The notes: generated from the letters alone by a model not told the origin. A DNA stretch of 64,000 nt from a virus (IMGVR_UViG_3300021958_008605:13220-77219); one strand, 5' to 3'; counted from the stretch's first letter, positions 1-24,695 are shown. Program-made: numbers and translations.

Positions 1-431
1 TCATCGATTGGTAGTTTATCTGCTGGTACTCTACCGAATATCTCAGATGAGGCACATACATGAACCACTACATCATCTTCACCATGGTCTCTCAATGCCT
101 CTAATAAATTTGCAGTACCCAAAATGTTTGTTTGTAAGGTTTCAAGTGGTGCACTAAATGAAGTTTTTGGATATGATTGAGCCGCTAAGTGAAAAACATA
201 ATCTGCTTCTGATTGTTCTACTGCTTGAACTACTGATGGTAAGTCATTTAAATCTCCATTGATTAAAAACAACCTATCTTTCTTGTTGATTCTATCAAAG
301 TGATGTTCTAAGTTATCCAATCTATCATTCCATCTGATAAATCCATAGATATTCCAAGTTGTATTCTCAATAAGGTAATCTACCAAATGAGAACCAACCA
401 TTCCTGTTATTCCTGTTATTAATACATTCAT
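1..431 (-). CDS. gmd: GDP-mannose 4,6-dehydratase (5' part only; runs off the window edge)
   Basis: Not in the ORF track; translated by hand from ATG at 431: MNVLITGITGMVGSHLVDYL...DYVFHLAAQSYPKTSF...TNILGTANLLEAL...CASSEIFG. This has the Rossmann GxxGxxG and the Gmd-typical HLAAQS and ASSE motifs. ATGA overlap with the upstream stop. Confidence 0.85.
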   Translation of the reverse strand, partial: MNVLITGITGMVGSHLVDYLIENTTWNIYGFIRWNDRLDNLEHHFDRINKKDRLFLINGDLNDLPSVVQAVEQSEADYVFHLAAQSYPKTSFSAPLETLQTNILGTANLLEALRDHGEDDVVVHVCASSEIFGRVPADKLPID

Positions 432-1384
432 TTGTTTTGTTTAAACCATTCAATTGTTTCTCTAATACCATCTTCAAATGAATAACTTGGTTGAAATCCA
501 AGATTATTTATCTTTTCGGTACTAACCATTCTAAAAGGTATCGTAGTTGGTTTAGAATTATCCCAAACTATTTCTGGTGTAAGACCAGATACTTTTTGAA
601 TCGTGTTTACTATATCTCCAACCGTAATTGGTGCTCCATATCCAACATTATAAGGTTCCATTGGGTTACCATGTTCGATTATTGTTAATGCACCCTTAAT
701 TACATCCTTAACATACAAGAAATCTCTTACAACATCAGGTGAACCCCAAGCAGTGAATGGATTTTCACCACCTAACATACGATTAATGATTGCAGGTATC
801 ACATGACAAGTTTTTACATCAAAATTATCATTAGGTCCAAAGATTGCCGAACCTCTACCCAAGAATATCTTCAAATCAGAGAAGTTTGAGGTGTGTTCCA
901 TCAACTTTTCTCTATATCTTCTCATCCAACCATAACCGAAGTACGCAATGTAGGGTTCTTCTTCCCAAAATTCATCTTCCTTCACAGGATATCGTCTGTC
1001 AGGATAGCCTGTTGATGAATTAAGGTCAAAAAATGAATCTACCTCGTTTGTAACACACGCTTCTAGTACATTTCCAAGTAAAGTAATGTTTCCTAGTGAA
1101 CCTTGTATATCAGTTCGTACTGAACCAGGGTGTAAAACATGACCAGCACAATGGATTACTAAATCCGCTCCACTTGTGAGTTTGATTGCATCATCAAGGT
1201 TATTTAAATCGATGTTTTCTAGTATTGTTATATCTTTTTGTATCTCTTCACTAACTTGTAGTGGTGAATTGTAGGTGTGAGTAGTAATATTCGCACCTAA
1301 CTTGTTTAATTCTGTGATGAAGTGTGTTGCAAGGAAACCTGCACCTCCTGTAACTACAACTTCTTTGTTATTAAAGTAACTCAT
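428..1384 (-). CDS. GDP-L-fucose synthase-like extended SDR epimerase/reductase
   Basis: VTGGAGFLA Rossmann motif, SSTGYP, CHVIPAIINRM, WGSPDVVRDFLYVKD (Fcl-like). The YxxxK position reads YGWMR. Adjacent to gmd. Confidence 0.7.
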   Translation of the reverse strand: MSYFNNKEVVVTGGAGFLATHFITELNKLGANITTHTYNSPLQVSEEIQKDITILENIDLNNLDDAIKLTSGADLVIHCAGHVLHPGSVRTDIQGSLGNITLLGNVLEACVTNEVDSFFDLNSSTGYPDRRYPVKEDEFWEEEPYIAYFGYGWMRRYREKLMEHTSNFSDLKIFLGRGSAIFGPNDNFDVKTCHVIPAIINRMLGGENPFTAWGSPDVVRDFLYVKDVIKGALTIIEHGNPMEPYNVGYGAPITVGDIVNTIQKVSGLTPEIVWDNSKPTTIPFRMVSTEKINNLGFQPSYSFEDGIRETIEWFKQNK

Positions 1385-13966: not shown

Positions 13967-15424
13967 TTAATTTGGGTTATATTCACCATCTTCGAAGTGT
14001 GTAATTTCACCTGATTTCATTTCAACATCAGGTATTGTTTGGTCAACCTCTATCTGATTGTACCACACTGCAAGTTCTGGAAAGGTTTTGCAAAAATCCT
14101 TACCCCTTCGTTTATCGTATTGTTCGTAAAATGATTTAAAATCGTGAAAGTGAGTATCATTTTCTCCTTCAGTAGTAACATGACCTGTTTGTACAACTTC
14201 AATGTAATCTACCAATCTTTCTATCTGTGCGATTTCTCCCTCACTAAACAATTGGTAAAAATCTTCATCTTGTTTTCTTGTTTCAAACCAAGTTTTTAAT
14301 TTTTTGTGTAAGAATTCTTTAACATCATTTGGTAATGCTAATGGAGACATAAATGCTGGCCATCTTAAAATATTGAAATCTACATTAGGTCTATTCGGTC
14401 CATATTTTCTTTTTAAAACAATCATATCATCTAAAAACTCATCGATTGAAAATAAACATAGTGAGTTGATTGTCATCATTACTGTTAAAGAACGGAATAT
14501 ATCTTTATTTACTCCTTCGATGAAAGCAACCATATGACTTCTCCACTCATCATAAATTAAACCATCTCTAATGTAATCGGCATGAGGCCCATAAGCTTCA
14601 TTAGATGTATATAAATCAAATTCTTTAATTGGTAATTCATAAGAAGCATCAATTAATCTTTGAATTCTTTTAAAGTTACCACCTAAGTTTGAATTTACTG
14701 CCAATCTAAGTTTATCAGATGGATATCCTTTCATTTTATCTAAGAAACTCCAAAAGTTTGGAGATGCACAAGGTTCACCACCTGTAATTCTTATTTCTTC
14801 TAATCCACCTTCAATCAAATCAGGCCACCATTTAAGGAAAGCCTCTACATAAGGATTTTGTTCGTTATATTTACCATTTGCATCTGCCCAAGAACCATTG
14901 TTTTGATATGCACCAGCTGAAACTGATTTAAATTTTTGATAAGGTCCGAACTTATCTATATCTTTACCCCAAGTAGTGGAGTATCCAGCATTACAATAAG
15001 AACAAGCAAAATTACAAGTTCTATCAAACGAGGCTTCAATGGTTTTTGGAATGATATCAACATCAGCTCCTAATTCTTTAATCTTAGCAATATCCTCTTC
15101 TTTATAAATTTTAGATTTATAAACTCTATCACCAATATTATCTCTACCAATATCTTCAATCTTCCAACAATAAGAACATTCTGCTGGTCTTTTACCCTCT
15201 AACATCATCTTTCTCTGTCTTTTTGAGAAATCTGTATTGTGAAGTTCTTGAGGTCTCTCTTTTAACTTCTCAGGGTCAATTGGGTGAGGTAATGGTAAAT
15301 GACATGAGTTTTTAAAACCATGCCCTAAGTGTAACGATACATTGTACCATTTTGCTGCACAAAAACTTGGTGATATACTATTGAGATTTTTATCTCTCCA
15401 TTTTCTAAGATTATCTGTTGACAT
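13967..15424 (-). CDS. Radical SAM protein with N-terminal SPASM/twitch-like Cys domain, paralog 1
   Basis: FCAAKW...SCH...ECSYCW precedes CNFACSYC; ITGGEP. Confidence 0.85.
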   Translation of the reverse strand: MSTDNLRKWRDKNLNSISPSFCAAKWYNVSLHLGHGFKNSCHLPLPHPIDPEKLKERPQELHNTDFSKRQRKMMLEGKRPAECSYCWKIEDIGRDNIGDRVYKSKIYKEEDIAKIKELGADVDIIPKTIEASFDRTCNFACSYCNAGYSTTWGKDIDKFGPYQKFKSVSAGAYQNNGSWADANGKYNEQNPYVEAFLKWWPDLIEGGLEEIRITGGEPCASPNFWSFLDKMKGYPSDKLRLAVNSNLGGNFKRIQRLIDASYELPIKEFDLYTSNEAYGPHADYIRDGLIYDEWRSHMVAFIEGVNKDIFRSLTVMMTINSLCLFSIDEFLDDMIVLKRKYGPNRPNVDFNILRWPAFMSPLALPNDVKEFLHKKLKTWFETRKQDEDFYQLFSEGEIAQIERLVDYIEVVQTGHVTTEGENDTHFHDFKSFYEQYDKRRGKDFCKTFPELAVWYNQIEVDQTIPDVEMKSGEITHFEDGEYNPN

Positions 15425-15430
15425 ATACTT

Positions 15431-16177
15431 TTATTTTATAAACTCCTTTGGTATTCTTTCAACGAAAAAGTTGTTTTTAGAATTATCAAAAATTATACCT
15501 TGATTATTAATTGTATCGAAACTATACTTAAATATAATATTTTCATATTCTTCTAATTTATTTAGATTTGAATCTTTTGTTTTTCCAATTTTCTGTACAA
15601 CTTCAATATCTACACATTCTTCTACAAAATACATTGTATCAATATCTACTGAACCATGGTATCTATGCTCTGGTACTTCAGTACCTGGATTACCTGTTCC
15701 TATTAATAATCCTTCTCCTCTATAATCATCAATCAAATTTTTATCAAAATCAATTTCACCTATTTTATTAAAATTATGATAAATGAAAAACTCATCACCA
15801 TCTCTTGTTATTGTTATATCAGTATATTCTTGTAATTGTTCATACTTTACTCCATAGAATGGTAAGTAATGAAATTCATCACCAGCAACTTTAGTAGTTC
15901 CCTCTGTCCAAAATTCTAAAGCGAGTGTATCGGCTTCTTCATTGTAAGTTAAACCAAAGTTTTTACCTGGTTTACCAAAGATACAAAAAATTTTATCATT
16001 TTCCAAATTTTTATCCAATTTAAATCTCACATTTAATGAATACTTTTCTTGATGAAAAAGATTTGCTATTTTTTCTGATTCTTTTTTATTAAAATTTGTT
16101 ACATATTGGTCATCTTTATGGTCTGATAAATCCCACTCATATTTTACCCAATATGGTTCTTTATATTTTACTATCAT
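15431..16177 (-). CDS. Stand-alone concanavalin A/LamG-like domain protein
   Basis: YSLNVRFK...IFGKPGKNFGLTYN...ITITRDGDEFFIYHN...LLIGTG...YHGSVD. Similar to the inserts in the neighbouring GT7 proteins. Confidence 0.5.
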   Translation of the reverse strand: MIVKYKEPYWVKYEWDLSDHKDDQYVTNFNKKESEKIANLFHQEKYSLNVRFKLDKNLENDKIFCIFGKPGKNFGLTYNEEADTLALEFWTEGTTKVAGDEFHYLPFYGVKYEQLQEYTDITITRDGDEFFIYHNFNKIGEIDFDKNLIDDYRGEGLLIGTGNPGTEVPEHRYHGSVDIDTMYFVEECVDIEVVQKIGKTKDSNLNKLEEYENIIFKYSFDTINNQGIIFDNSKNNFFVERIPKEFIK

Positions 16178-17592
16178 TTTATATCATTTATAAATTTTCT
16201 TAGTTCAGGATAAGTTTCATAACAATCTGCATTTCTTCTTTTCTTGTAATCAGCTATATAGTGTTTAAACTTCTTTTTACCAATACCAAAATTAACATCA
16301 GATTTTGAATCTTCAATAAATATATCTTTTATCCTTGAAATTTTTTCTATTTCTTTTAGTGAAAATCCACTATCGGTTGGTTCTTGTAACTGATATGAAT
16401 TTAAGCTTCTATATGATGAAAAGAATTTCATATATTTTTCTAATTTTTCAAAGTATGATAAATCCAAATATCCTTTTAGTAATCTAAAACTTAAAAAATC
16501 AGGATATCTTAAATAAGATGTATCTAAAATTAGAGGTGAGTTCCAATATCTATTTGTATTGAAATGTTTTACTTTATAATCATAAATTTTTCTTACTAAC
16601 TTTTCATAATTGAATGGTGAAAAAATATTAAAAGTAGACATTACAACAATTGTAATTTGTGGTATCTCTGTTAAAATTCTATCGATATTATTAAAGAGTT
16701 GATTATAATCTAAACCATATCTAATAAATTCTGCCTGTTTACCATCAGTGTCAACTGAAGTGTATAAGATAAATTCTTTTACTCGTTCTTCGGTTATGAT
16801 AACTTTAGCCTTTTCAATAAATTTATCAATCAATTTATCTTCAACACATAAATTACTATTGATAGAAAGTTTTAATTCTTTATTTGGTTTATCTGTTTTT
16901 ATTATTTTATCTAACACTTTAAATGTATCTTTAGATAATAAAGGCTCTCCACCTGTTACTCTAAATGTATCCATACTTTTATAAAGCTCTGGCCACCATT
17001 CCCAAAATGCCTCTACATAAGGATTATGTTCTCTTTGTGGGATTGGTAACATATCATCCTTTTTAAGTTGTTCTAATGAATTAAATCCATCACCAGTAGA
17101 AAACTCACCATGTTTTTTCATTTCTTGTACCCATTGTGATGAATATGATGGGCCACAATATCCACATTTAAAATTACAAGTATTTGAGAAAGATACTTCC
17201 ACATATTTTGGTAAGTAATCTTCTCTCCAATCTAAATCTTTAATTTCTTTAAAGTGAGGTTTAGACCATTGTTCTTCTGATTTAAAAACTCTATCTGAAA
17301 ATGAATCCGAATTATCCTCGACCTTCCAACAATATCCACATTCACTTGGTCTACCACCATTCAACATTTCCTTTCTAGCCTTTTTCTTTTGAGTACTATT
17401 ATGAAGTGCAGTTGGGTTTCTTTTCAATTCTCGTAACCCAACCTTATGTGGTGCAGGGTGATGACAAGAGTGAGTAGTACCATCGTGTAGGTGCATAGTT
17501 ACTTGAGTCCATTTTGCTAAACAAAACCCACACCCAACAGAATCTAACTTCTGTTTCATTTCGGTAAAGTTATTACCTATTACTTTACTCAT
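16174..17592 (-). CDS. Radical SAM protein with N-terminal SPASM/twitch-like Cys domain, paralog 2
   Basis: FCLAKW...SCHH...ECGYCW precedes CNFKCGYC; VTGGEP; collinear with 13967..15424. Confidence 0.85.
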   Translation of the reverse strand: MSKVIGNNFTEMKQKLDSVGCGFCLAKWTQVTMHLHDGTTHSCHHPAPHKVGLRELKRNPTALHNSTQKKKARKEMLNGGRPSECGYCWKVEDNSDSFSDRVFKSEEQWSKPHFKEIKDLDWREDYLPKYVEVSFSNTCNFKCGYCGPSYSSQWVQEMKKHGEFSTGDGFNSLEQLKKDDMLPIPQREHNPYVEAFWEWWPELYKSMDTFRVTGGEPLLSKDTFKVLDKIIKTDKPNKELKLSINSNLCVEDKLIDKFIEKAKVIITEERVKEFILYTSVDTDGKQAEFIRYGLDYNQLFNNIDRILTEIPQITIVVMSTFNIFSPFNYEKLVRKIYDYKVKHFNTNRYWNSPLILDTSYLRYPDFLSFRLLKGYLDLSYFEKLEKYMKFFSSYRSLNSYQLQEPTDSGFSLKEIEKISRIKDIFIEDSKSDVNFGIGKKKFKHYIADYKKRRNADCYETYPELRKFINDIK

Positions 17593-19037
17593 AATTTTAT
17601 ATTAATATATTTTGCTTTTGGTGTGATTTCTTCTATACTCACTAACTCATATTTTAAGTTACTCATACCATCAGATTTATAATCCCATTTACCTTGTTGC
17701 ATTTGGTGTACAAATCTTTTTTCGTTTCTTGCCGTTGTTTCACCTTTTGCCCAAACTTGTTTACCATCTTGATTTGTTACTAACCCCTCATCTTTGTGTG
17801 GTAAACAAAACATTTTACCTGGTACTCTATGAGGTACTGTTGTATGAGGGATTTCTATTTTTTCTGTATTAATTTTACAGTTATGAGAAATCCCATCATT
17901 ATCGTATTCACTCCTATCCTCTACCGAACCACCCTCGAAATCGTAATGAAGAACCAACCCGTCGTTTGTAGGATTTATTGATAGTTCTTCTACTTCATCT
18001 GATGTTAATGCACGATTCCACATCTTAACATCTGCTATATCTCCTTTGAACCACTTTGAAGGGTCATCATCTGCAACAGATGTTGTGGTTCCTAAGTAAT
18101 AATCTACATTACCATATCTTTTCAACATTCCTTCAAAGTGTTGTGGTGATGCAGTACCGGTTCCCCACCTTGCATCGGATTCTTTTCCATTCATATATAA
18201 ATGAATATCATTACCATCTACAACCATCGTTACCCAACTCCATCTATCTTCATAGTTCTTCATCCATTGATAAAGATGTTCTCTTTGGTTGTTCCAAAGT
18301 TGTGCTGTATAAGCTCTTGAGTTGTTGTAAGAAAATCCATAATCATATCCTGGTCTACGAAGAATAGGATATTCACAAAATCTTCTATCCATATCTCCTA
18401 CCAACCAAATAGGAACTTTTTCTTCTTGTTGATGTGCTCGTACCAATACTGAAATTGTATGTGAACGAGAAGTTAGATTTCTTAGTTTTCGTGTACATGG
18501 AATTTGTACATAAGAATCTTTACCATTAAATGTTAAAAAGGATGTTGGATTAAAACTAAAATCTAACATATCAGTTTTTGTGTAACCTTCTAATACACAT
18601 CTCCAAAATAGGTCATCATCTTCCATACCCCAATCCCAATAATCATTTGAATAACCATTGGTTCTTTCAACTTGTTCTTTGGTGAATAAAACTGCTCCAC
18701 CAAAATATTCTTCATATTTTAATTCGTAGTTCATTTGTGATATCTGAGTAGCGATATGTCTTGGATTATCTTTAGGGTAAGAATAATCACAACCACCACC
18801 TTCTTCAGGTATCATATCGATATCGTGATATACTACATAATCACAACCATCTTCAAATGCGTGTTTTGCTGCTATGTTTTTTGTTGCTCCTCTGTTGAAT
18901 AATTTATCATCTACTTGATGGCCGAAATAAATACAATAATCAATACCTTGTCCATCAAGGTATTTACCAATCTTTGGTATAAACTCTTTTAGATGAGCTT
19001 CTCTATTTCTATATGGAACACAAACTCCTAATTTCAT
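17589..19037 (-). CDS. GT7 (beta-1,4-galactosyltransferase-like) with inserted LamG domain, copy 1
   Basis: VPYRNR, FNRG, HDID (DxD), FGG, NGYSNDYWDWGMEDDDL; about 230-aa LamG insert (WSWVTMVVDG..LYMNG...FKGDIADVKMWNRALT..E); then CLPH and DGMSNLKY. Confidence 0.85.
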   Translation of the reverse strand: MKLGVCVPYRNREAHLKEFIPKIGKYLDGQGIDYCIYFGHQVDDKLFNRGATKNIAAKHAFEDGCDYVVYHDIDMIPEEGGGCDYSYPKDNPRHIATQISQMNYELKYEEYFGGAVLFTKEQVERTNGYSNDYWDWGMEDDDLFWRCVLEGYTKTDMLDFSFNPTSFLTFNGKDSYVQIPCTRKLRNLTSRSHTISVLVRAHQQEEKVPIWLVGDMDRRFCEYPILRRPGYDYGFSYNNSRAYTAQLWNNQREHLYQWMKNYEDRWSWVTMVVDGNDIHLYMNGKESDARWGTGTASPQHFEGMLKRYGNVDYYLGTTTSVADDDPSKWFKGDIADVKMWNRALTSDEVEELSINPTNDGLVLHYDFEGGSVEDRSEYDNDGISHNCKINTEKIEIPHTTVPHRVPGKMFCLPHKDEGLVTNQDGKQVWAKGETTARNEKRFVHQMQQGKWDYKSDGMSNLKYELVSIEEITPKAKYINIKL

Positions 19038-19444
19038 AGTGTATCTGCAATTAGTTTTTTAAACTTGGTTGTTGACCAACCATGGTCTCTATTTAAATAG
19101 TGAATTGGTATATCTAATTCGAAACCTGTATATGTTTTACCTCTATAATCATCTCCTAAAAATCTGATATCTGGTTCTATTCCTTTCAACAACTCTACCA
19201 ACTCTTTTTCATAAGTATAATAAGCAATGGAATCTATCCATTTTATTGAAGTTAGAACTTCTGTTCTTTCTTCTTTTGATAAAATGGGTTTTAATTTTTC
19301 TGGTCTTTCTATTGATGGGTCTACATGAAGAAGTATTACAAATTGTTGACAATATGATTTACACTCCTTAAACATTTTTATGTAACCAGGATGAATAACA
19401 TCAAAATTTCCTGCAATTACTCCTGTTTTGTACATTGGCATCAT
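19034..19444 (-). CDS. Cytidylyltransferase (TagD/RfaE-like; glycerol-3-phosphate or sugar nucleotidyltransferase)
   Basis: GNFDVIHPGY (HxGH-like), ER..VL, GDDY, RDHGWSTT. Confidence 0.8.
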   Translation of the reverse strand: MMPMYKTGVIAGNFDVIHPGYIKMFKECKSYCQQFVILLHVDPSIERPEKLKPILSKEERTEVLTSIKWIDSIAYYTYEKELVELLKGIEPDIRFLGDDYRGKTYTGFELDIPIHYLNRDHGWSTTKFKKLIADTL

Positions 19445-20907
19445 AGTTCTACTGAAATTTTAGTAACCAAATCATTTTCAATTTTAATAACTTCTTTAAA
19501 TCTAAGAGTATTTAATCCATCAATTCTAAAGTTATCTAATTCTTCTCTAACTTCATTATAATATTTTAATTGATTTTTTCTGGTTTCTCTATGAACCCAT
19601 TTATTACCGATAGATGAATTAGTTTTATGTTTTAATGATTTAAATCTTGAATCTCTTCTACAAGGTTTTGGTAAAAAAGTTTTGTATGAATGGTTATCTT
19701 TATATAAATATATATTATTTAACTTTACCGAATATCTTTGAGCTAAATCTATTGATAGAGTTGATGATGATAACTCTGGTAATATTTGTGTATATAAAAA
19801 TTGAGATGATTTAAAATCTCCAAAGTTTCGTATCTTGGGTTTTTTTGGATTTTTATAAATTTCCAATATTTCTTCATCTCCCAATGCCACATCATATATT
19901 TCTAAGTTAGAAATTAATCCATAAAAGAAATCGTTGTTAGTTAATTTATCATTAGCAGTTCCAACAAATATTTCATTTGATGATAATTCCATTATATCAC
20001 ATCCCATTTCTACTGAATCTAAAAACTCTCCATTAATATATAAACTTACTCTCCAATTGTTAGAACCCTTTATCATACCAGGTGTTTCATACTTCATTGT
20101 AAGATGAACCCATCGTTCTCCTAATATATCTGTTGTTATTGAGTAAGGTTTTTTATCAGCATCATAAACTTGACAGAAAAATCTTCTAAATGAATTATAG
20201 AACAATCCTATATTATATCCTGGTATTGATATGATAGGAAATTCATCGTAATCTTTATTTTCATTTAATTTAATCTCTGATGGTTTTACTAACATTGATA
20301 TTGTAAACTCATCTTCTAATAAATGTGTTTTTTCTGCTGTTAATTTTATATAAGAACCATCGCCATTAAATTGAAAATTTTCATAAGTATCAATCTCACT
20401 ACCATTTGTAATTTCATTATCTAATTGTAAGTTAGATTCAATACATCTAATTAATAAATCATCATCTTCAAATCCCCATCCCCAATATTCATTAGAGAAT
20501 CCATTGATAGTTTTGAAATCTTCTTTAGTAAACATAGTTACTCCACCAAAGTAATCAAAAAATGTTGTTTCGTAATCGTGTTCTTGTAAGTGAGTTGCTA
20601 AATGTAGAGGTTTATCTGAATATGAGTAATCTACATCTTCAGGCAACATATCAACATCATGAAATACAAAATAATCACACCCTTTATCAACGGCATACTT
20701 ATATCCTGCATTCAGAAGTTTACCTCTGTTAAAAGGTTTGTCATCTGCCTGTTCAACGATGAAGATTTCGTAATCAATATCCTTGATATATTCTTTCATA
20801 TGAGATAAGAACCTTTTTAATTGTTGTTCTCTATCTCTATATGGAACAATTATACCAAGTTTATGAGTTATCTTCTTATTCTTCAGATTTCTCTTGGATT
20901 CTTTCAC
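19441..20907 (-). CDS. GT7 with inserted LamG domain, copy 2
   Basis: VPYRDR, FNRGKLLN, HDVD, YFGG, NGFSNEYWGWGFEDDDL; LamG insert (FTISMLVKP...WVHLTM...LYING...FYGLISNLEIYD.AL); then SLKH and DGLNTLRF. Confidence 0.85.
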   Translation of the reverse strand: MKESKRNLKNKKITHKLGIIVPYRDREQQLKRFLSHMKEYIKDIDYEIFIVEQADDKPFNRGKLLNAGYKYAVDKGCDYFVFHDVDMLPEDVDYSYSDKPLHLATHLQEHDYETTFFDYFGGVTMFTKEDFKTINGFSNEYWGWGFEDDDLLIRCIESNLQLDNEITNGSEIDTYENFQFNGDGSYIKLTAEKTHLLEDEFTISMLVKPSEIKLNENKDYDEFPIISIPGYNIGLFYNSFRRFFCQVYDADKKPYSITTDILGERWVHLTMKYETPGMIKGSNNWRVSLYINGEFLDSVEMGCDIMELSSNEIFVGTANDKLTNNDFFYGLISNLEIYDVALGDEEILEIYKNPKKPKIRNFGDFKSSQFLYTQILPELSSSTLSIDLAQRYSVKLNNIYLYKDNHSYKTFLPKPCRRDSRFKSLKHKTNSSIGNKWVHRETRKNQLKYYNEVREELDNFRIDGLNTLRFKEVIKIENDLVTKISVEL

Positions 20908-21121
20908 TACCTCTTTCTGGTCTATTTGTTGTTCCTACTGTTTTTGATTTAGCGATTTGGTAGAACTCATTCAAGTACCACTCTAATCTTTCTTGCCACA
21001 TATCAGCATCTAAATCATACAACCAATCGTTTATATCTCCAATTGAACCAGCTATGGATTCAAGAGCCTTTACACCTCTTTCTTCAAGAGATTTATGCTT
21101 CGTTGTCTCGTTCTTTGCCAT
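20876..21121 (-). CDS. Hypothetical protein
   Basis: 81-aa ORF overlapping both neighbours on the gene-dense strand. Confidence 0.55.
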   Translation of the reverse strand: MAKNETTKHKSLEERGVKALESIAGSIGDINDWLYDLDADMWQERLEWYLNEFYQIAKSKTVGTTNRPERGSERIQEKSEE

Positions 21122-21650
21122 AATTGTAATTTAGTTTTTTGTTATAAATTAATTCTTCTTTGAGTTTTTCAAATATCAAACCTTCAAGACCTTCTTTATC
21201 GATTGGGAAGGATGCCTCATCAATCCAATCTTCTAATCTTTTAGGCTCCCATTTCAAGTTCTCCAACTCATCATCTATTTTTTGAGGCTCCCATTGTTTA
21301 GTATCTATTTCTGCGTTTATTTCTTCTAATCTATATTCTAATTTTTCCTTTTCAACTTGTAAATCATCTAAACGAAATTTTATATCATCTCGTTTTACAG
21401 TTTTCATTTTAATATCTTCATTGATATCATCAATATCTGTTTGTTTATCATAGTATCTTGAAAAGAATCTACCGATATTTGCTGTTCTTGAGTTTTTGTT
21501 CTGTAAAAACAATGTTTCAACTATTAATATAACTTTTAAAAATATAGATTTATCATCAGAACTTGGTTCTGTTAAATCTTTCAAGTCATTATCAATCTTT
21601 TCAAGAGTTTTAACAACTTTTTCGTTATGTAACAATTCTAATAAGTTCAT
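21093..21650 (-). CDS. Hypothetical coiled-coil protein
   Basis: Acidic heptad-like stretch with a short KQWEPQKI/KWEPKRL repeat. The start may be the internal Met (MKTVKR). Confidence 0.55.
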   Translation of the reverse strand: MNLLELLHNEKVVKTLEKIDNDLKDLTEPSSDDKSIFLKVILIVETLFLQNKNSRTANIGRFFSRYYDKQTDIDDINEDIKMKTVKRDDIKFRLDDLQVEKEKLEYRLEEINAEIDTKQWEPQKIDDELENLKWEPKRLEDWIDEASFPIDKEGLEGLIFEKLKEELIYNKKLNYNYGKERDNEA

Positions 21651-23085
21651 AATTTTTTTTATTTTGTATATCTAATATACTGTAATTTAATGTACTCAAT
21701 CCTATGGATTTATAATCTAATTTATTTGGAATCACATCGTGAAAAAATATATCAGAATTTTCTGTAATATCCGGGTCGTATTTGTAATATCTTTTTATTA
21801 TATCTGTATCATTTTCGTGAACCAAAGATTTGTATTCAGAATCTAATCTTATTGGCAGATACAATTCATTTGGTGTGTATCCTAATTTATCTGATTGTAA
21901 ACTTCCATAAAACTTTAAATGATTTTTATAAGAACCACTATCTAATAAAATCGATTGTTTATATAAAGAATTATATTTTAAGTTTATTACAGGTGATAAT
22001 CCAAATTTATTATGGATATCATCTAAAGATAAATTACCTCTATTGTATAATATGTTTATAACTTCATCACTTAAATAAGAATCAAACGCCAAAATATTTG
22101 ATATCATTATAGATGTTGAATCATCTGATATTTTTATATTATTTTTAGAGTAATCATATATCTCAAAATTATCTTTTAATTTTATTTCTTTTGTTTTATC
22201 ATTTATGGATAACTTTAAAATATTTTCTTTACTATCATATGAATATACACAATGATTCCATCTGTTCCTTGAGTAAGATAATATAATTTCTTCGTGATTA
22301 TTTTTATTATCCCAAATTTGTGCTATTATTTCATTTCCTCTACTCAAAAACAATCCACTATCACATCCTTCAAATACAAATAAGTTTTTCTTCATTTTAC
22401 GCTCAAAATCATCATTGAACCAAAACGAAATACTAAATGAATCTTTAATCATTTTTTTAGTAAGTGGATTTAGTAATCCATATATGTAGTCAGTTTCAGA
22501 AAATGTATTATATTCTATTTGTTGAATTCGTTTCTCATTACAAACATTTACATTTTCAATTCTATATGGCAGAACATCTAACTCATCATAATTAGAATAT
22601 ACATTATTTAAATCGTATTTCTTTTCTAAGTAAGCACCACTTCTTTGTAATCTATAAAGTAAATCTAAATCTTCAAACCCATAACCCCAATATTCATTTG
22701 AATATCCATTTGCATTTTCAAAATCTTCTCTACTGATTAAAACAACTCCACCGAAGTATTGTGGGTAAGGTAATTTATTATCGTGTGCTTCTACATTTGT
22801 AGCAAGATGAGTTGGTGAATCAGGATATCCATAATCACACTCATCATTCATAGGTAACATATCAATATCATGAAAAGCAAAGTAAGTGTATTCTTTTCCC
22901 ACTTCTTTAGAAACTACATTACAGAGTTTACCATAGTTAAATGGTCTTTCATCTGTTTGTTCTGCGATAAAAATAGTGTAATCGATTCCTTTATCCTTTA
23001 GGAATTCGTGCATATGAGGAACAAAAACATCTAAGTGGTCTTGTCTATCTCTATACGGAACTATTATTGCTAACTTATCTTTCAT
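21625..23085 (-). CDS. GT7 with inserted LamG domain, copy 3
   Basis: VPYRDR, FNYGKLCN, HDID, YFGG, NGYSNEYWGYGFEDLDL; LamG insert (FSISFWF...WNHCVYSY...LSIN); then SLVH and IGLSTLNY. Confidence 0.82.
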   Translation of the reverse strand: MKDKLAIIVPYRDRQDHLDVFVPHMHEFLKDKGIDYTIFIAEQTDERPFNYGKLCNVVSKEVGKEYTYFAFHDIDMLPMNDECDYGYPDSPTHLATNVEAHDNKLPYPQYFGGVVLISREDFENANGYSNEYWGYGFEDLDLLYRLQRSGAYLEKKYDLNNVYSNYDELDVLPYRIENVNVCNEKRIQQIEYNTFSETDYIYGLLNPLTKKMIKDSFSISFWFNDDFERKMKKNLFVFEGCDSGLFLSRGNEIIAQIWDNKNNHEEIILSYSRNRWNHCVYSYDSKENILKLSINDKTKEIKLKDNFEIYDYSKNNIKISDDSTSIMISNILAFDSYLSDEVINILYNRGNLSLDDIHNKFGLSPVINLKYNSLYKQSILLDSGSYKNHLKFYGSLQSDKLGYTPNELYLPIRLDSEYKSLVHENDTDIIKRYYKYDPDITENSDIFFHDVIPNKLDYKSIGLSTLNYSILDIQNKKNYELIRIVT

Positions 23086-23928
23086 TTAGATTTTTACTAT
23101 AACTTCTTTAAGAGTATTCCAATGGTTATAACAAATATACGAATTTTTTTTGACATTTACAAATAAAAACTCATCTTTTTTTACATCAATCTTCCAATCA
23201 TTGAGTTGGATAGCTCGATACATCTTTTTATATTCTTTCCAATACGAATAATCTTCTTTTGTTTCTGATACTTCTTTTAATCTTTCTAAAACTGTTGAAT
23301 CCCATTTAAAATGATGTACTTGTACAAATCCTTTTTCTATTGGATATCGTTTAGGATGATTCCATCCTCTTTCTCTCCAAGTATCAGTATCACCAATCAT
23401 AGCAAAGTGTTGACCTGGTGTTACATCTACCGAACCTTTCATCACACAACATTTATTTGGCATCGCTCCACTCATAGGATATCTAAAAAATCCTGCAAGT
23501 GGAAACGATTTCCAAATATTTGTTTCTTTTGTTACCAAAGGAAACTCACCATCCTCTCCTATCCTATCGAGGAAACCTCCTGTTATAAACTCCCATCCAT
23601 TTTCTTCACATTCTTGAATCATTTCTCGAATATCTTTTGGATATACATGGAGTTCATCATCATCCGAAACCACCCACCATTCGTTTGGTTTGGTTTGTTT
23701 TACTTCGTTGTATAATTCAGTTACTCTTTCCCAATTAAATTTTGGTTCTGTAACTACTTTATATGGTTTTATACCTAAATTTACTACTTGCTCTAAAATA
23801 CCATCTAAATTGTGTTGTCTATAAACTACAACAAAAATTTCATCTACAATATCTTTGTAGTGATTAATCATATGTGGTAGAAGTGTTGTGTTGTGACCAA
23901 CAACTGTAACTAAATTTAGTTTTTGCAT
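23086..23928 (-). CDS. GT2-like (GT-A fold) glycosyltransferase
   Basis: MINHYKDIVDEIFV, WWVVSDDDEL (DxD), HHFKW. Confidence 0.7.
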   Translation of the reverse strand: MQKLNLVTVVGHNTTLLPHMINHYKDIVDEIFVVVYRQHNLDGILEQVVNLGIKPYKVVTEPKFNWERVTELYNEVKQTKPNEWWVVSDDDELHVYPKDIREMIQECEENGWEFITGGFLDRIGEDGEFPLVTKETNIWKSFPLAGFFRYPMSGAMPNKCCVMKGSVDVTPGQHFAMIGDTDTWRERGWNHPKRYPIEKGFVQVHHFKWDSTVLERLKEVSETKEDYSYWKEYKKMYRAIQLNDWKIDVKKDEFLFVNVKKNSYICYNHWNTLKEVIVKI

Positions 23929-24695
23929 CTTTGAAGAATTGTTAGACCTGTTGATGCTGGTTTAGTTTTAAATATACCATTATTAAAAAAGTTGAAAATT
24001 TCCCATTCTTTATTTTCTTTTAACTCTTTTACCAACTTAGAAGGTCCATTTGTAATTTCTTGATGGTCATTTGTTTTAATATCATCTGTAACAATATATT
24101 CTTTTTCAAATGATTCATCTGTATCGTGTATTGAAACGATACCATTTGGTGAAAGTAATTTTGTATATAATTCAAAATCTTTTTTTACATCTTCATAAGA
24201 ATGACCTGCATCAATATGAAGATAATCTATCTTAATATCTTCTTTTACGAAAAAATTATAATATGCATTTTCAGTAGTATCTAAAATAACTCTTGGATGA
24301 AAGTTTTCTCTAAGAAAACTTTTTTCATCAACCCAATCAGTATTACCACCAATACCATTAGAAGCATCTACAAGATATGTTACTCCAATATCACCCCAAT
24401 TATAATCTCTATTTCCTTCAAAGATTTGTGAATCATATAAATCAACTCTTGATTGTGTCATGATTCGTGGAATGAATCCACCACCACTTCCCAAACAAAC
24501 ACAATTTTTTGCTCTCATATAATGAATAATAGAATAAACCAATAATCCATCACCAAGTGTTAAATCAGTTGCTCCATGTGTCCATCTATAAGGAACTTTT
24601 TTTAACTCTACAAAATCATTACCATTAGAATCTTTTTGGTTTGATTGATTGTGAGTAAAAAAATCTTTTATGAAATCAAGGTTAAAGAGTGTCAT
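23916..24695 (-). CDS. Class I SAM-dependent methyltransferase (Methyltransf_24-like)
   Basis: CLGSGGG motif I; IDYLHIDAGHSYEDVKKDF; LLSPNGIVSIHD. Confidence 0.8.
   Translation of the reverse strand: MTLFNLDFIKDFFTHNQSNQKDSNGNDFVELKKVPYRWTHGATDLTLGDGLLVYSIIHYMRAKNCVCLGSGGGFIPRIMTQSRVDLYDSQIFEGNRDYNWGDIGVTYLVDASNGIGGNTDWVDEKSFLRENFHPRVILDTTENAYYNFFVKEDIKIDYLHIDAGHSYEDVKKDFELYTKLLSPNGIVSIHDTDESFEKEYIVTDDIKTNDHQEITNGPSKLVKELKENKEWEIFNFFNNGIFKTKPASTGLTILQRCKN

What the first reader, a model, noticed from the sequence alone, without database searches (positions are those of the whole stretch)
17589..23085. Three GT7 (beta-1,4-GalT-like) paralogs, each with a LamG/ConA lectin domain inserted inside the catalytic domain
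Seen in sequence: all three keep the GT7 N-half (VPYR.R, FN.G, HD.D, FGG, NG.SN.YW.WG.ED.DL). About 220-250 aa of LamG-like sequence follows before the GT7 C-terminal elements resume (the metal-binding His in CLPH/SLKH/SLVH and the DG(L/M)..L.Y tail). In human B4GALT1 those two parts are only about 20 residues apart. The insertion point is the same in all three, so it predates the triplication. The acceptor/donor loop differs (WDWGMEDDD, WGWGFEDDD, WGYGFEDLD), suggesting different specificities. GT7 is known mainly from animals. An intradomain lectin insert next to the flexible catalytic loop is an architecture I do not recognise; it could target the enzyme to a growing glycan or give processivity.
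Basis: partly seen in the sequence, partly recalled or inferred. Interest (0 to 1): 0.8.

Follow-up and report, generated by a model that had tools for sequence, protein, structure and literature searches.

The report
Phage galactosyltransferase-like enzymes split by LamG
An uncultured marine jumbo phage encodes three sugar-adding enzymes of the animal beta-1,4-galactosyltransferase type, each with a whole lectin-like LamG domain spliced into its catalytic fold; the design is real, common in uncultured phages, rare in bacteria, and unstudied.

Summary
Genes 17589-19037, 19441-20907 and 21625-23085 (all minus strand) each encode a GT7 (B4GalT-like) GT-A enzyme interrupted by about 250 aa of LamG/ConA-like beta-sandwich. 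The insert lies between the helix carrying the catalytic EDDD motif and the strand carrying the metal-binding His. AlphaFold models (pLDDT 93-96) align to bovine B4GalT1 across both halves (Z 28-29, about 214 residues). The inserts align to LamG and pentraxin domains (Z 17-22).

The insert has a single origin. It sits at the same site in all forms, inserts from the three clades recognise each other (E down to 1e-42), no intermediate lengths exist, and the best tree puts all insert-bearing forms in one clade.

More than 500 IMG/VR loci carry the architecture, usually inside a conserved cassette: methyltransferase, GT2, two GT7-LamG genes and twitch radical-SAM genes. It also occurs on a true Spirochaetaceae chromosome, in a polysaccharide gene cluster. 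None of 50,697 GenBank phage records has it, and I found no paper on it.

Related LamG modules also stand alone (window 15431-16177) or are fused to the radical-SAM enzymes. This points to substrate recognition, but neither the acceptor nor the donor is known.

This scan has already reported the same architecture on at least four other phage genomes. It is a new variant of a known kind.

The parts
17589..19037 (-). GT7-LamG paralog 1 (P0001, 482 aa), clade 1, small loop WDWGMEDDD
   Evidence: Pfam GT7N + GT7C(1-61/78) + Laminin_G_3. AF2 pLDDT 95.7, pTM 0.91. B4GalT1 1tvy_A Z 27.9, rmsd 2.0 A, 214 residues aligned over model 1..482.
18594..19037 (-). P0001 GT7 N-half, aa 1-148: PYRNR, FNRG, HDID, YFGG, WDWGMEDDD and the alphaF helix
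   Evidence: N-half HMM E 9e-65. Conservation in A2: D72 100%, D74 96%, E139 93%, D140 97%.
17841..18593 (-). P0001 nested LamG/ConA-like beta-sandwich plus two linkers, aa 149-399
   Evidence: Laminin_G_3 171-349, E 8.5e-15. Model residues 163-~400 against the PAPP-A LamG-like domain Z 22.4, 4dqa Z 20.8, pentraxins Z 18-19.
17592..17840 (-). P0001 GT7 C-terminal part, aa 400-482: strand with C-His (H414), lid loop, DGMSNLKY tail
   Evidence: C-tail HMM E 1.5e-23. The same HMM hits the C-termini of uninterrupted GT7 at E down to 8e-15. The C-tail profile hits only B4GalT1 in the PDB, E 0.017.
19441..20907 (-). GT7-LamG paralog 2 (P0002, 488 aa, GTG start), clade 2, WGWGFEDDD. N-half aa 1-157 = 20437-20907; insert aa 158-412 = 19672-20436; C part aa 413-488 = 19444-19671.
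   Evidence: Pfam. Human B4GalT1 E 1e-33 over residues 14-161, with a collinear weak match of 441-487. Boundaries.
21625..23085 (-). GT7-LamG paralog 3 (P0003, 486 aa), clade 3, WGYGFEDLD, Arg228-equivalent replaced by Tyr. N-half aa 1-148 = 22642-23085; insert aa 149-408 = 21862-22641; C part aa 409-486 = 21628-21861.
   Evidence: Pfam. AF2 pLDDT 92.8, pTM 0.84. 1tvy_A Z 28.9, 213 residues aligned over 1..486; insert 188-406 against PAPP-A Z 20.7.
19034..19444 (-). 136-aa cytidylyl/adenylyltransferase-like gene between paralogs 2 and 1. Its start and stop codons overlap both neighbours by 4 nt.
   Evidence: CTP_transf_like E 3e-11. RfaE domain II-like and TagD-like, below the equivalog cut-offs. 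Present at this spot in only 7 of 80 related loci.
23086..23928 (-). GT2-like glycosyltransferase (Glyco_tranf_2_4), a cassette member directly upstream of paralog 3
   Evidence: Pfam. A homolog occurs in 71 of 80 viral loci just upstream of the GT7-LamG genes.
23916..24695 (-). Methyltransf_24 methyltransferase, a cassette member
   Evidence: Pfam. Found in 68 of 80 viral loci.
16174..17592 (-). Twitch-domain radical SAM enzyme directly downstream of paralog 1 (4-nt overlap), a cassette member
   Evidence: NF033640 N_Twi_rSAM E 1e-93. The family occurs in 76 of 80 loci, 172 ORFs.
15431..16177 (-). 248-aa stand-alone LamG-like protein related to the GT7 inserts
   Evidence: No Pfam hit, but the clade-2 insert HMM gives E 1.3e-11. 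The equivalent ~245-aa ORFs in other loci carry Laminin_G_3.
13967..15424 (-). Second twitch-domain radical SAM enzyme
   Evidence: NF033640 E 2e-83.

Best explanation
Shown: each gene encodes a soluble protein (no transmembrane segment) with a complete B4GalT-type GT-A catalytic domain. The domain is cut once, in the connection between the alphaF helix (which begins with the catalytic E-D-D-D) and the beta-strand that ends in the metal-binding C-terminal His. A LamG/ConA-like beta-sandwich of about 250 aa is nested at that point and is modelled in a confident, fixed orientation. The catalytic set is kept in all three window copies and across the family: PYRxR and FNRG for UDP binding, HDxD plus the C-His for the metal, the Tyr289-equivalent, the WGxG small loop, and the Asp catalytic base. 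The insert arose once, before the three paralog clades split. Inferred: these are active, metal-dependent, inverting UDP-sugar transferases that make beta-linkages. The three clades differ in active-site signature (WDWG[M/Q]EDDD; WGWG[F/Y]ED[D/N]D; WGYG.EDLD with Arg228-equivalent changed to Tyr), so they probably add different sugars or act on different acceptors. Their fixed gene order in a translationally coupled cassette suggests successive steps on one growing glycan. The nested LamG most likely holds or selects the acceptor, as a built-in substrate-recognition module. It evolves about twice as fast as the catalytic half, and the same kind of LamG is also supplied to the neighbouring radical-SAM enzymes, either as a separate protein or as a fusion. 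The final product is probably a phage-specified glycan on the virion or on the infected cell surface; which of the two is not known.
For: Fold and split: (Z 27.9/28.9 to B4GalT1 over both halves; inserts Z 17-22 to LamG/pentraxin; pTM 0.91/0.84). Sequence. Catalytic residues conserved in 73 full-length representatives. The C-tail of long forms is homologous to the C-terminus of uninterrupted forms, and the gap is bimodal (median 4 aa against 250 aa, no intermediates). Insert HMMs cross-hit between clades at E 1e-17 to 1e-42. The tree with all insert-bearing forms as one clade is 67 lnL units better than the free tree, p-AU 0.84. Clade-specific active-site signatures. Fixed order clade 2 then clade 1 in 67 loci, and clade 3, clade 2, clade 1 in 12. 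Cassette conservation. Insert evolves faster (identity N-half/insert 0.66/0.36, 0.57/0.28, 0.54/0.26). Stand-alone and radical-SAM-fused LamG related to the inserts. A bacterial copy lies inside an ABC-transporter-type glycan cluster on a true chromosome. Microbial uninterrupted GT7 domains are fused to GT2, GT47, GT61, GT17 and sulfotransferase domains, as in polysaccharide builders. No hydrophobic segment (maximum KD19 below 1).
Against: No activity, donor, acceptor or product is known for any member. No sugar-binding or Ca-binding residues were identified in the insert, and faster evolution could simply mean weaker constraint. By GT-A topology, the alphaF-to-strand turn lies at the end of alphaF away from the active site. 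A sub-group of clade 3 (not the window copy) has lost the Glu/Asp base, part of DxD and the C-His, so not every member need be an enzyme.
Confidence: 0.6

Rival explanations
1. The LamG is a protein-protein module rather than a glycan binder. It would dock the enzymes onto a protein substrate such as a virion protein, or assemble the cassette enzymes (GT7s, radical SAMs, free LamG) into one complex.
For: The closest structural matches include the PAPP-A LamG-like domain and pentraxins, which bind proteins as well as sugars. Related LamG modules are fused to, or sit beside, the twitch radical-SAM enzymes, a class that includes peptide-modifying enzymes (established knowledge). Two paralogs are almost always adjacent. 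The cassette abuts tail-fibre genes.
Against: The bacterial copy sits in an ordinary polysaccharide cluster with GT4, GT2 and an ABC transporter. No candidate protein substrate or complex was tested. LamG_3 domains are also common carbohydrate binders.
Confidence: 0.22
2. The insert is a passive structural addition (stability, solubility or oligomerisation, taking the place of the animal stem region) with no role in substrate choice.
For: Its sequence is the least conserved part of the protein. The residues conserved across clades are the Gly and hydrophobic positions typical of the sandwich core.
Against: It has been retained without loss or shortening in hundreds of diverged sequences (gap 196-307 aa, no intermediates). 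Its orientation is confidently fixed (pTM 0.84-0.91). The same module is independently attached to other enzymes of the cassette.
Confidence: 0.1
3. The enzymes glycosylate phage DNA (hypermodified bases) rather than a glycan or a protein.
For: Phage-encoded GT-A and GT-B enzymes that decorate 5hmC with varied sugars are known from marine metaviromes (10.1101/2023.12.21.572611).
Against: Those GT-A enzymes are JGT-like, not GT7. No C5-methyltransferase, 5mYOX or dCMP hydroxymethylase lies in the cassette. The bacterial homolog sits in a surface polysaccharide cluster. The cluster makes many different activated sugars.
Confidence: 0.04

Closest known systems
Animal beta-1,4-galactosyltransferases B4GalT1 and B4GalT7 (CAZy GT7; PDB 1TVY, 1NF5, 2AE7, 4IRQ, 3LW6)
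   Same: Same GT-A fold and order of elements (Z 26-29, rmsd about 2 A, 30-35% identity over about 210 residues). Same UDP-binding, DxD, YFGG, WGxG, EDDD, C-His and DGL..L.Y motifs.
   Different: The window proteins have no membrane anchor or stem and start at about bovine residue 178-180. About 250 aa of LamG sandwich stands where B4GalT1 has about 18 residues. They are phage-encoded and cytoplasmic. Paralog 3 has Tyr for Arg228, Tyr for Trp314 and Leu for Asp319 (bovine numbering from the literature, mapped through).
Uninterrupted microbial and giant-virus GT7-like domains (~220 aa; e.g. P0262, P0268, Parachlamydiaceae L019, Megaviridae A0A5J6VLB6)
   Same: These are the nearest sequence relatives of the catalytic halves (35-55% identity in the N-half). 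Their C-termini are hit by the long-form C-tail HMM at E down to 8e-15.
   Different: They have no insert (gap median 4 aa). They are often fused in series to other GT, methyltransferase or sulfotransferase domains.
GT-A enzymes with appended lectin domains: polypeptide GalNAc-transferases (GT27, C-terminal ricin-type lectin; PMC4432651) and MGAT4A (GT54, C-terminal lectin; PMC9296478)
   Same: A GT-A catalytic domain is combined with a sugar-binding beta-rich domain that steers substrate choice or activity. GT27 is placed in the same GT-A clade as GT7 (PMC7185993).
   Different: In those enzymes the lectin is attached at the C-terminus by a linker and has another fold. Here a LamG sandwich is nested inside the catalytic domain, and lectin activity is unproven.
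GT-A folds split by insertions: PGAP4/GT109 (tandem transmembrane helices; PMC5785973) and Legionella Lgt1/GT88 (multi-helix insertions; PMC8476585)
   Same: These are precedents showing that a GT-A domain tolerates a large insertion, and that the insertion can serve substrate access.
   Different: Those inserts are helices, not an autonomous globular domain. The families and insertion sites are different.
Phage-encoded glycan systems: mycobacteriophage virion glycosylation (Freeman et al. 2023, PMC10527164, cited through) and the cell-wall synthesis/modification gene sets of cyanomyoviruses S-SCSM2R, S-SCSM1 and P-SSM2 (PMC12801897)
   Same: Large phages that carry many glycosyltransferase and sugar-nucleotide genes (GT2, GT10, GT11, TagD-like, RmlC, amidinotransferase), much like this window's cluster.
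   Different: None of those sets lists a GT7 enzyme. tblastn of P0001 and P0002 finds nothing in 50,697 GenBank phage records.

Membership tests
CAZy GT7 / B4GalT-like GT-A glycosyltransferases | Pfam Glyco_transf_7N and Glyco_transf_7C above gathering score | tested here: met
   60-83 bits (cut-off 27) and 66-74 bits (cut-off 23) in all three. The 7C match is truncated at profile position 61-63 of 78 by the insert.
CAZy GT7 / B4GalT-like GT-A glycosyltransferases | B4GalT-type GT-A fold, including the C-terminal strand, lid and tail | tested here: met
   1tvy_A Z 27.9 (P0001) and 28.9 (P0003), rmsd 1.8-2.0 A, 213-214 residues aligned, model 1..482/486 to chain 178/180..398. P0002 was not modelled.
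CAZy GT7 / B4GalT-like GT-A glycosyltransferases | DxD metal/donor motif | tested here: met
   HDID, HDVD and HDID in the window copies. D72 is 100% and D74 96% conserved in 73 representatives.
CAZy GT7 / B4GalT-like GT-A glycosyltransferases | xED(D) motif with the catalytic Asp at the start of alphaF | tested here: met
   EDDD, EDDD and EDLD. E139 93%, D140 97%. Lost only in a clade-3 sub-group that does not include the window copy.
CAZy GT7 / B4GalT-like GT-A glycosyltransferases | C-terminal His as a metal ligand, followed by the flexible lid | tested here: met
   CLPH (H414), SLKH and SLVH. His is invariant in the 32-sequence C-tail alignment A5 and 81% in A2. Lid dynamics cannot be tested here.
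CAZy GT7 / B4GalT-like GT-A glycosyltransferases | Small flexible loop WGWG with the Trp314-equivalent | tested here: met
   Trp in P0001 and P0002; P0003 has Tyr (WGYG). Clades 1 and 2 have 100% Trp; clade 3 is variable.
CAZy GT7 / B4GalT-like GT-A glycosyltransferases | Inverting transfer of Gal/GalNAc from a UDP-sugar to make a beta-1,4 linkage | not testable with these tools
   Needs enzyme assays. Retention of the Tyr289-equivalent (81% Tyr) is only a hint about the donor.
CAZy GT7 / B4GalT-like GT-A glycosyltransferases | Type II membrane topology with a stem region (animal members only; not a CAZy criterion) | tested here: not met
   The proteins begin at the first Rossmann strand. Maximum 19-residue Kyte-Doolittle hydropathy is 0.36-0.94.
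LamG / ConA-like lectin-glucanase superfamily (Pfam Laminin_G_3) | Two-sheet jelly-roll beta-sandwich of LamG/pentraxin type | tested here: met
   P0001 insert: PAPP-A Z 22.4 (194 aligned), 4dqa Z 20.8, PTX3/SAP/CRP Z 18-19. P0003 insert: PAPP-A Z 20.7, 4dqa Z 20.2, neurexin LNS Z 16.8. P0002 rests on sequence only.
LamG / ConA-like lectin-glucanase superfamily (Pfam Laminin_G_3) | Pfam Laminin_G_3 above gathering score (27.6 bits) | tested here: met
   P0001 55.6 bits and P0002 52.8 bits. P0003 scores only 21.3 bits, but its insert is hit by the clade-1 and clade-2 insert HMMs and folds as LamG.
LamG / ConA-like lectin-glucanase superfamily (Pfam Laminin_G_3) | Carbohydrate or Ca2+ binding site, i.e. 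true lectin function | not tested
The fold alone does not show lectin activity.

The most novel reading that the evidence does not exclude
The LamG of this lineage is a portable substrate-recognition module shared by all enzymes of a conserved phage cassette. It is nested in the GT7 transferases, fused to the twitch radical-SAM enzymes in some phages, and free-standing beside them in others. This would work like the recognition elements that recruit different tailoring enzymes to one precursor in peptide natural-product pathways. The cassette would then modify one common macromolecule, for example a virion protein or a defined glycan primer, and would be a new kind of phage-encoded modification system.
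Probability: 0.25. Interest if true: 0.8.

Novelty: new variant of a known kind. Interest (0 to 1): 0.6.

Why it matters
GT7 is one of the best-understood glycosyltransferase families, yet all studied members are animal Golgi enzymes with an uninterrupted catalytic domain. This study shows a large, diverse and abundant viral branch (hundreds of uncultured aquatic phage contigs, plus rare bacterial copies). In it, a whole globular beta-sandwich is nested one secondary-structure element away from both the catalytic base and the metal-binding His.

If the insert selects the acceptor, it is a natural example of specificity engineering inside a GT-A fold. It would also be a handle for finding out what large marine phages glycosylate. 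The conserved cassette (methyltransferase, GT2, two GT7-LamG genes, radical SAMs, free LamG) gives a defined, clonable unit for that experiment.

Tried and rejected
1. Cultured relatives. tblastn of P0001 and P0002 against 50,697 GenBank phage records gave no match.

2. BFVD. No viral UniProt model has the combined architecture; only separate GT7 or LamG proteins appear.

3. Literature. Searches on Glyco_transf_7C/7N, Laminin_G_3 with glycosyltransferase and phage, GT7 with bacteriophage and lectin domain, galactosyltransferase with marine, jumbo, pelagi- or cyanophage, and GT-A domain insertion found no description of this architecture.

4. Direct MAFFT alignment of short and long forms (A3) misplaced the C-His strand of the short forms ahead of the insert. 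I replaced it with separate N-half and C-tail HMMs.

5. I considered that the insert is a circularly permuted LamG, because a 'YDF...D.S...N.G' motif lies at its end. I rejected this: the whole insert aligns in sequence order to complete pentraxin and LamG domains.

6. I tested whether the radical SAMs next to the bacterial copies are the same family as the phage twitch radical SAMs. They show only generic similarity (E 0.008-0.03), so no shared module was demonstrated.

7. The free maximum-likelihood tree of the N-half needed five changes of insert state. The AU test showed the free search had missed a better tree in which all long forms form one clade.

8. DNA glycosylation was considered and judged unlikely.

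9. I could not measure the distance from the LamG to the active site, because model coordinates are not exposed.

Full report
WHAT IS THERE

The window is part of a 77-kb linear IMG/VR virus record, estimated about 23% complete. GC content is about 30% and every gene is on the minus strand. It carries baseplate-wedge and SbcC-like genes. The nearest deposited relatives are a 484-kb uncultured phage and Microcystis phage Mel-JY01, at only 37-38% identity for the SbcC-like protein. It is therefore an uncultured marine jumbo myovirus with no close cultured relative.

- 17589-19037: P0001, 482 aa
- 19441-20907: P0002, 488 aa, GTG start
- 21625-23085: P0003, 486 aa

They are 29-32% identical to each other. 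They sit in a run of tightly packed, often 4-nt-overlapping genes for sugar activation and tailoring.

THE SPLIT ARCHITECTURE IS REAL

Pfam evidence:
- Each protein has Glyco_transf_7N and Glyco_transf_7C well above threshold.
- The 7C match stops at profile position 61-63 of 78, and Laminin_G_3 follows.
- Uninterrupted microbial GT7 domains match 7C to position 77-78.

Sequence evidence:
- P0002 residues 14-161 match human B4GalT1 at E 1e-33.
- HMMER also places residues 441-487 collinearly on the last 50 residues of the enzyme. That second stretch is not significant on its own.

Structural evidence:
- AlphaFold models built on 73-77 diverse homologs are very confident: P0001 pLDDT 95.7, pTM 0.91; P0003 pLDDT 92.8, pTM 0.84.
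- VIA-align superposes them on bovine B4GalT1 (1tvy_A) with Z 27.9 and 28.9, rmsd 2.0 and 1.8 A, over 214 and 213 residues. The alignment spans model residues 1..482 and 1..486 against chain 180/178..398, so it covers both sides of the insert.
- The intervening residues (P0001 163-~400, P0003 188-406) align to the LamG-like domain of PAPP-A (Z 22.4 and 20.7), the Bacteroides protein 4dqa (Z 20.8 and 20.2) and pentraxins (Z 17-19).

Independent sequence checks on the C-terminal piece:
- A profile of the C-terminal pieces alone (A5, 76 positions) finds only B4GalT1 in the whole PDB, at its C-terminus, E 0.017.
- An HMM of the same piece hits the C-termini of uninterrupted microbial GT7 proteins at E down to 8e-15.

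Boundaries:
- By HMM, the insert is aa 149-399 (P0001), 158-412 (P0002) and 149-408 (P0003).
- By secondary structure, it lies between the alphaF helix (P0001 139-149, beginning with E139-D140-D141-D142) and the strand that ends in the C-terminal His (408-411, H414).
- In B4GalT1 about 18 residues occupy this position.

CATALYTIC COMPETENCE

In the 73-sequence alignment the functional set is conserved:
- D72 100% and D74 96% (DxD motif)
- E139 93%, D140 97%, D142 96%
- The two Gly of YFGG 99-100%
- The Tyr289-equivalent 81%
- The C-His 81% in A2, and invariant in the cleaner C-tail alignment

None of the three proteins has a hydrophobic segment. They are soluble cytoplasmic enzymes, unlike the animal Golgi forms.

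The three clades carry distinct active-site signatures:
- Clade 1: WDWG[M/Q]EDDD
- Clade 2: WGWG[F/Y]ED[D/N]D, with Phe at the Tyr286-equivalent
- Clade 3: Tyr at the Arg228-equivalent in 75%, Leu/Ile at the Asp319-equivalent, and a variable Trp314-equivalent

Residue numbers are bovine B4GalT1 numbers from the literature, mapped through the alignment. Their known roles in donor and acceptor binding are established knowledge, not tested here.

ONE INSERTION, THEN DUPLICATION

- Among 344 sequences with a complete N-half, the gap between the N-half and the C-tail is bimodal. In 81 short forms the median is 4 aa (range -11 to 36). In 247 long forms the median is 250 aa (range 196-307). Nothing lies in between.
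- Insert HMMs built from each clade hit the inserts of the other two at medians of 1e-17 to 5e-29, and as low as 1e-42. This is far better than their match to generic Laminin_G_3.
- A tree built from the N-half alone, with the insert columns excluded, recovers the three long-form clades: support 99 for clade 1, 95 for clade 3 and 92 for clade 2.
- The free search scattered a few short forms among them. The tree constrained to hold all long forms together is 67 log-likelihood units better, with p-AU 0.84.

DISTRIBUTION

- The word-indexed search found 2,401 relatives, all unnamed and largely from marine metagenomes.
- The exhaustive search with the three-paralog profile found 15,170 representatives at E <= 1e-3. 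About 70 of the top 150 are full-length insert-bearing clusters.
- IMG/VR holds at least 531 loci, on contigs up to 335 kb.
- The ESM Atlas has at least 28 clusters of 50 or more members with this architecture, all viral.
- No GenBank phage record has a match, and no BFVD model has the combined architecture.

Among one genome for each of 185,579 prokaryote species, about 14 loci carry full-length forms, all in metagenome-assembled genomes (MAGs). Some of these are mis-binned phage; one example is a 248-kb 'Flavobacteriaceae' contig with tail-fibre and virion genes.

One locus is truly cellular. On a 196-kb Spirochaetaceae contig the gene sits among GT4, GT2, FkbM methyltransferase, radical SAM and ABC-transporter genes. 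Within 20 kb it is flanked by CTP synthase, RpoN, a two-component system, glutamine synthetase and a P-type ATPase. These bacterial copies fall in clade 1 with P0001.

Uninterrupted GT7 domains are widespread in bacteria and giant viruses. They are often fused to other glycan-building domains.

THE CASSETTE

In 80 related viral loci the gene order is strikingly constant:
- A clade-2 gene lies immediately upstream of a clade-1 gene in 67 loci.
- A clade-3 gene lies further upstream in 12 loci.

Homologs of the window's neighbouring genes are also conserved:
- Methyltransferase (23916-24695): 68 of 80 loci
- GT2-like gene (23086-23928): 71 of 80 loci
- Twitch radical-SAM genes (16174-17592 and 13967-15424): 76 of 80 loci, about two copies per locus

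The rest of the window's sugar cluster is variable. The small cytidylyltransferase between paralogs 2 and 1 is present in only 7 of 80 loci.

Thirty loci also encode a free LamG protein of about 245 aa next to the radical SAMs. The GT7-insert HMMs hit these proteins at E 1e-11 to 5e-21. That includes the window's own ORF 15431-16177 (E 1.3e-11), which Pfam leaves blank. In some phages this LamG is fused to the radical-SAM enzyme: L130:6602-8722 (706 aa) and L127:9409-12231 (940 aa).

HOW IT PROBABLY WORKS

Shown: complete GT7 catalytic machinery; a rigidly modelled nested LamG; a single origin; clade-specific active sites; fixed gene order; and a LamG module that recurs on other enzymes of the cassette.

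Inferred: the three enzymes are metal-dependent inverting UDP-sugar transferases that act in series on one glycan, and the LamG recognises the acceptor. Within clades the insert is only 26-36% identical where the N-half is 54-66% identical. That pattern fits a specificity module on a conserved catalytic engine, but it also fits weaker constraint.

I could not determine whether the sandwich reaches the acceptor cleft. By GT-A topology (PMC7185993) the alphaF-to-strand turn lies at the far end of alphaF from the catalytic base, and I had no coordinates to check this.

The target is unknown. It could be the virion, the cell envelope or something else. The bacterial context favours a polysaccharide or glycoconjugate. 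DNA modification is unlikely, because known DNA-modifying GT-A enzymes are JGT-like and the required base-modification genes are absent from the cassette.

COMPARISON WITH WHAT IS KNOWN, AND NOVELTY

- By sequence, fold and motifs these proteins are members of the GT7/B4GalT-like family. Activity is untested.
- Lectin domains attached to GT-A enzymes are known in GT27 and GT54, but there they are C-terminal appendages (PMC4432651, PMC9296478).
- Splits of a GT-A fold are known in PGAP4 and Lgt1, but those inserts are helices (PMC5785973, PMC8476585).
- I found no precedent for a whole globular beta-sandwich nested in a GT-A domain.
- Large glycosyltransferase sets in marine cyanomyoviruses, and virion glycosylation in mycobacteriophages, are the nearest biological parallels, and they lack GT7 (PMC12801897).
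- Earlier follow-ups in this scan reached the same reading on at least four other phage genomes, so the finding is not new to the scan.
- I class it as a new variant of a known kind, of moderate to high interest.

Noticed in passing
window 15431-16177 (-): This 248-aa ORF lies between the two twitch radical-SAM genes. Pfam finds nothing in it, but the HMM of the GT7 clade-2 inserts hits it at E 1.3e-11. It is a free-standing LamG-like protein of the same lineage as the inserts. Equivalent ~245-aa ORFs occur in 30 of 80 related loci.
   Followed up: partly
L130:6602-8722 and L127:9409-12231: In some related phages the LamG module is fused to the N-terminus of the twitch radical-SAM enzyme (706-aa and 940-aa proteins). 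The same accessory domain therefore serves two unrelated enzyme classes of the cassette.
   Followed up: partly
window 13967-24695 (-) and loci L058-L137: A conserved cassette comprises a methyltransferase, a GT2-like gene, two GT7-LamG genes and about two twitch radical-SAM genes. It is present in 68-80 of 80 viral loci, while the surrounding sugar-nucleotide genes vary.
   Followed up: yes
L069:4748-6205, L087:4777-6249, L109:4782-6236: A sub-group of clade-3 GT7-LamG proteins has lost the Glu/Asp of the catalytic motif, part of DxD and the C-terminal His (ILEN instead of SLxH). These may be non-catalytic relatives. The window's clade-3 copy keeps all of these residues.
   Followed up: partly
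P0162, P0183, P0207, P0200, P0248, P0274, P0298: Uninterrupted microbial GT7 domains occur as tandem GT7-GT7 proteins. They are also fused to GT2, GT47, GT61, GT17, FkbM methyltransferase or sulfotransferase domains, including a 1,686-aa multi-enzyme.
   Followed up: partly
L006 / L140-L141 (CBFHJJ010000001.1, 248 kb) and L004 (VHCC01000006.1): Contigs deposited inside Flavobacteriaceae and Pelagibacterales MAGs carry the phage cassette together with tail-fibre and virion genes. They look like mis-binned phage contigs.
   Followed up: partly
window 21093-21650 (-): This 185-aa ORF lies between paralogs 3 and 2 and overlaps the end of paralog 3 by 26 nt. It has no family match apart from weak coiled-coil-like SMC/Rad50 hits, and has a homolog in only 1 of 80 related loci.
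   Followed up: no
window 19034-19444 (-): This 136-aa nucleotidyltransferase resembles RfaE domain II and TagD but scores below both equivalog cut-offs. It is wedged between paralogs 2 and 1 in only 7 of 80 loci, so it looks like a recent addition to the cassette.
   Followed up: partly
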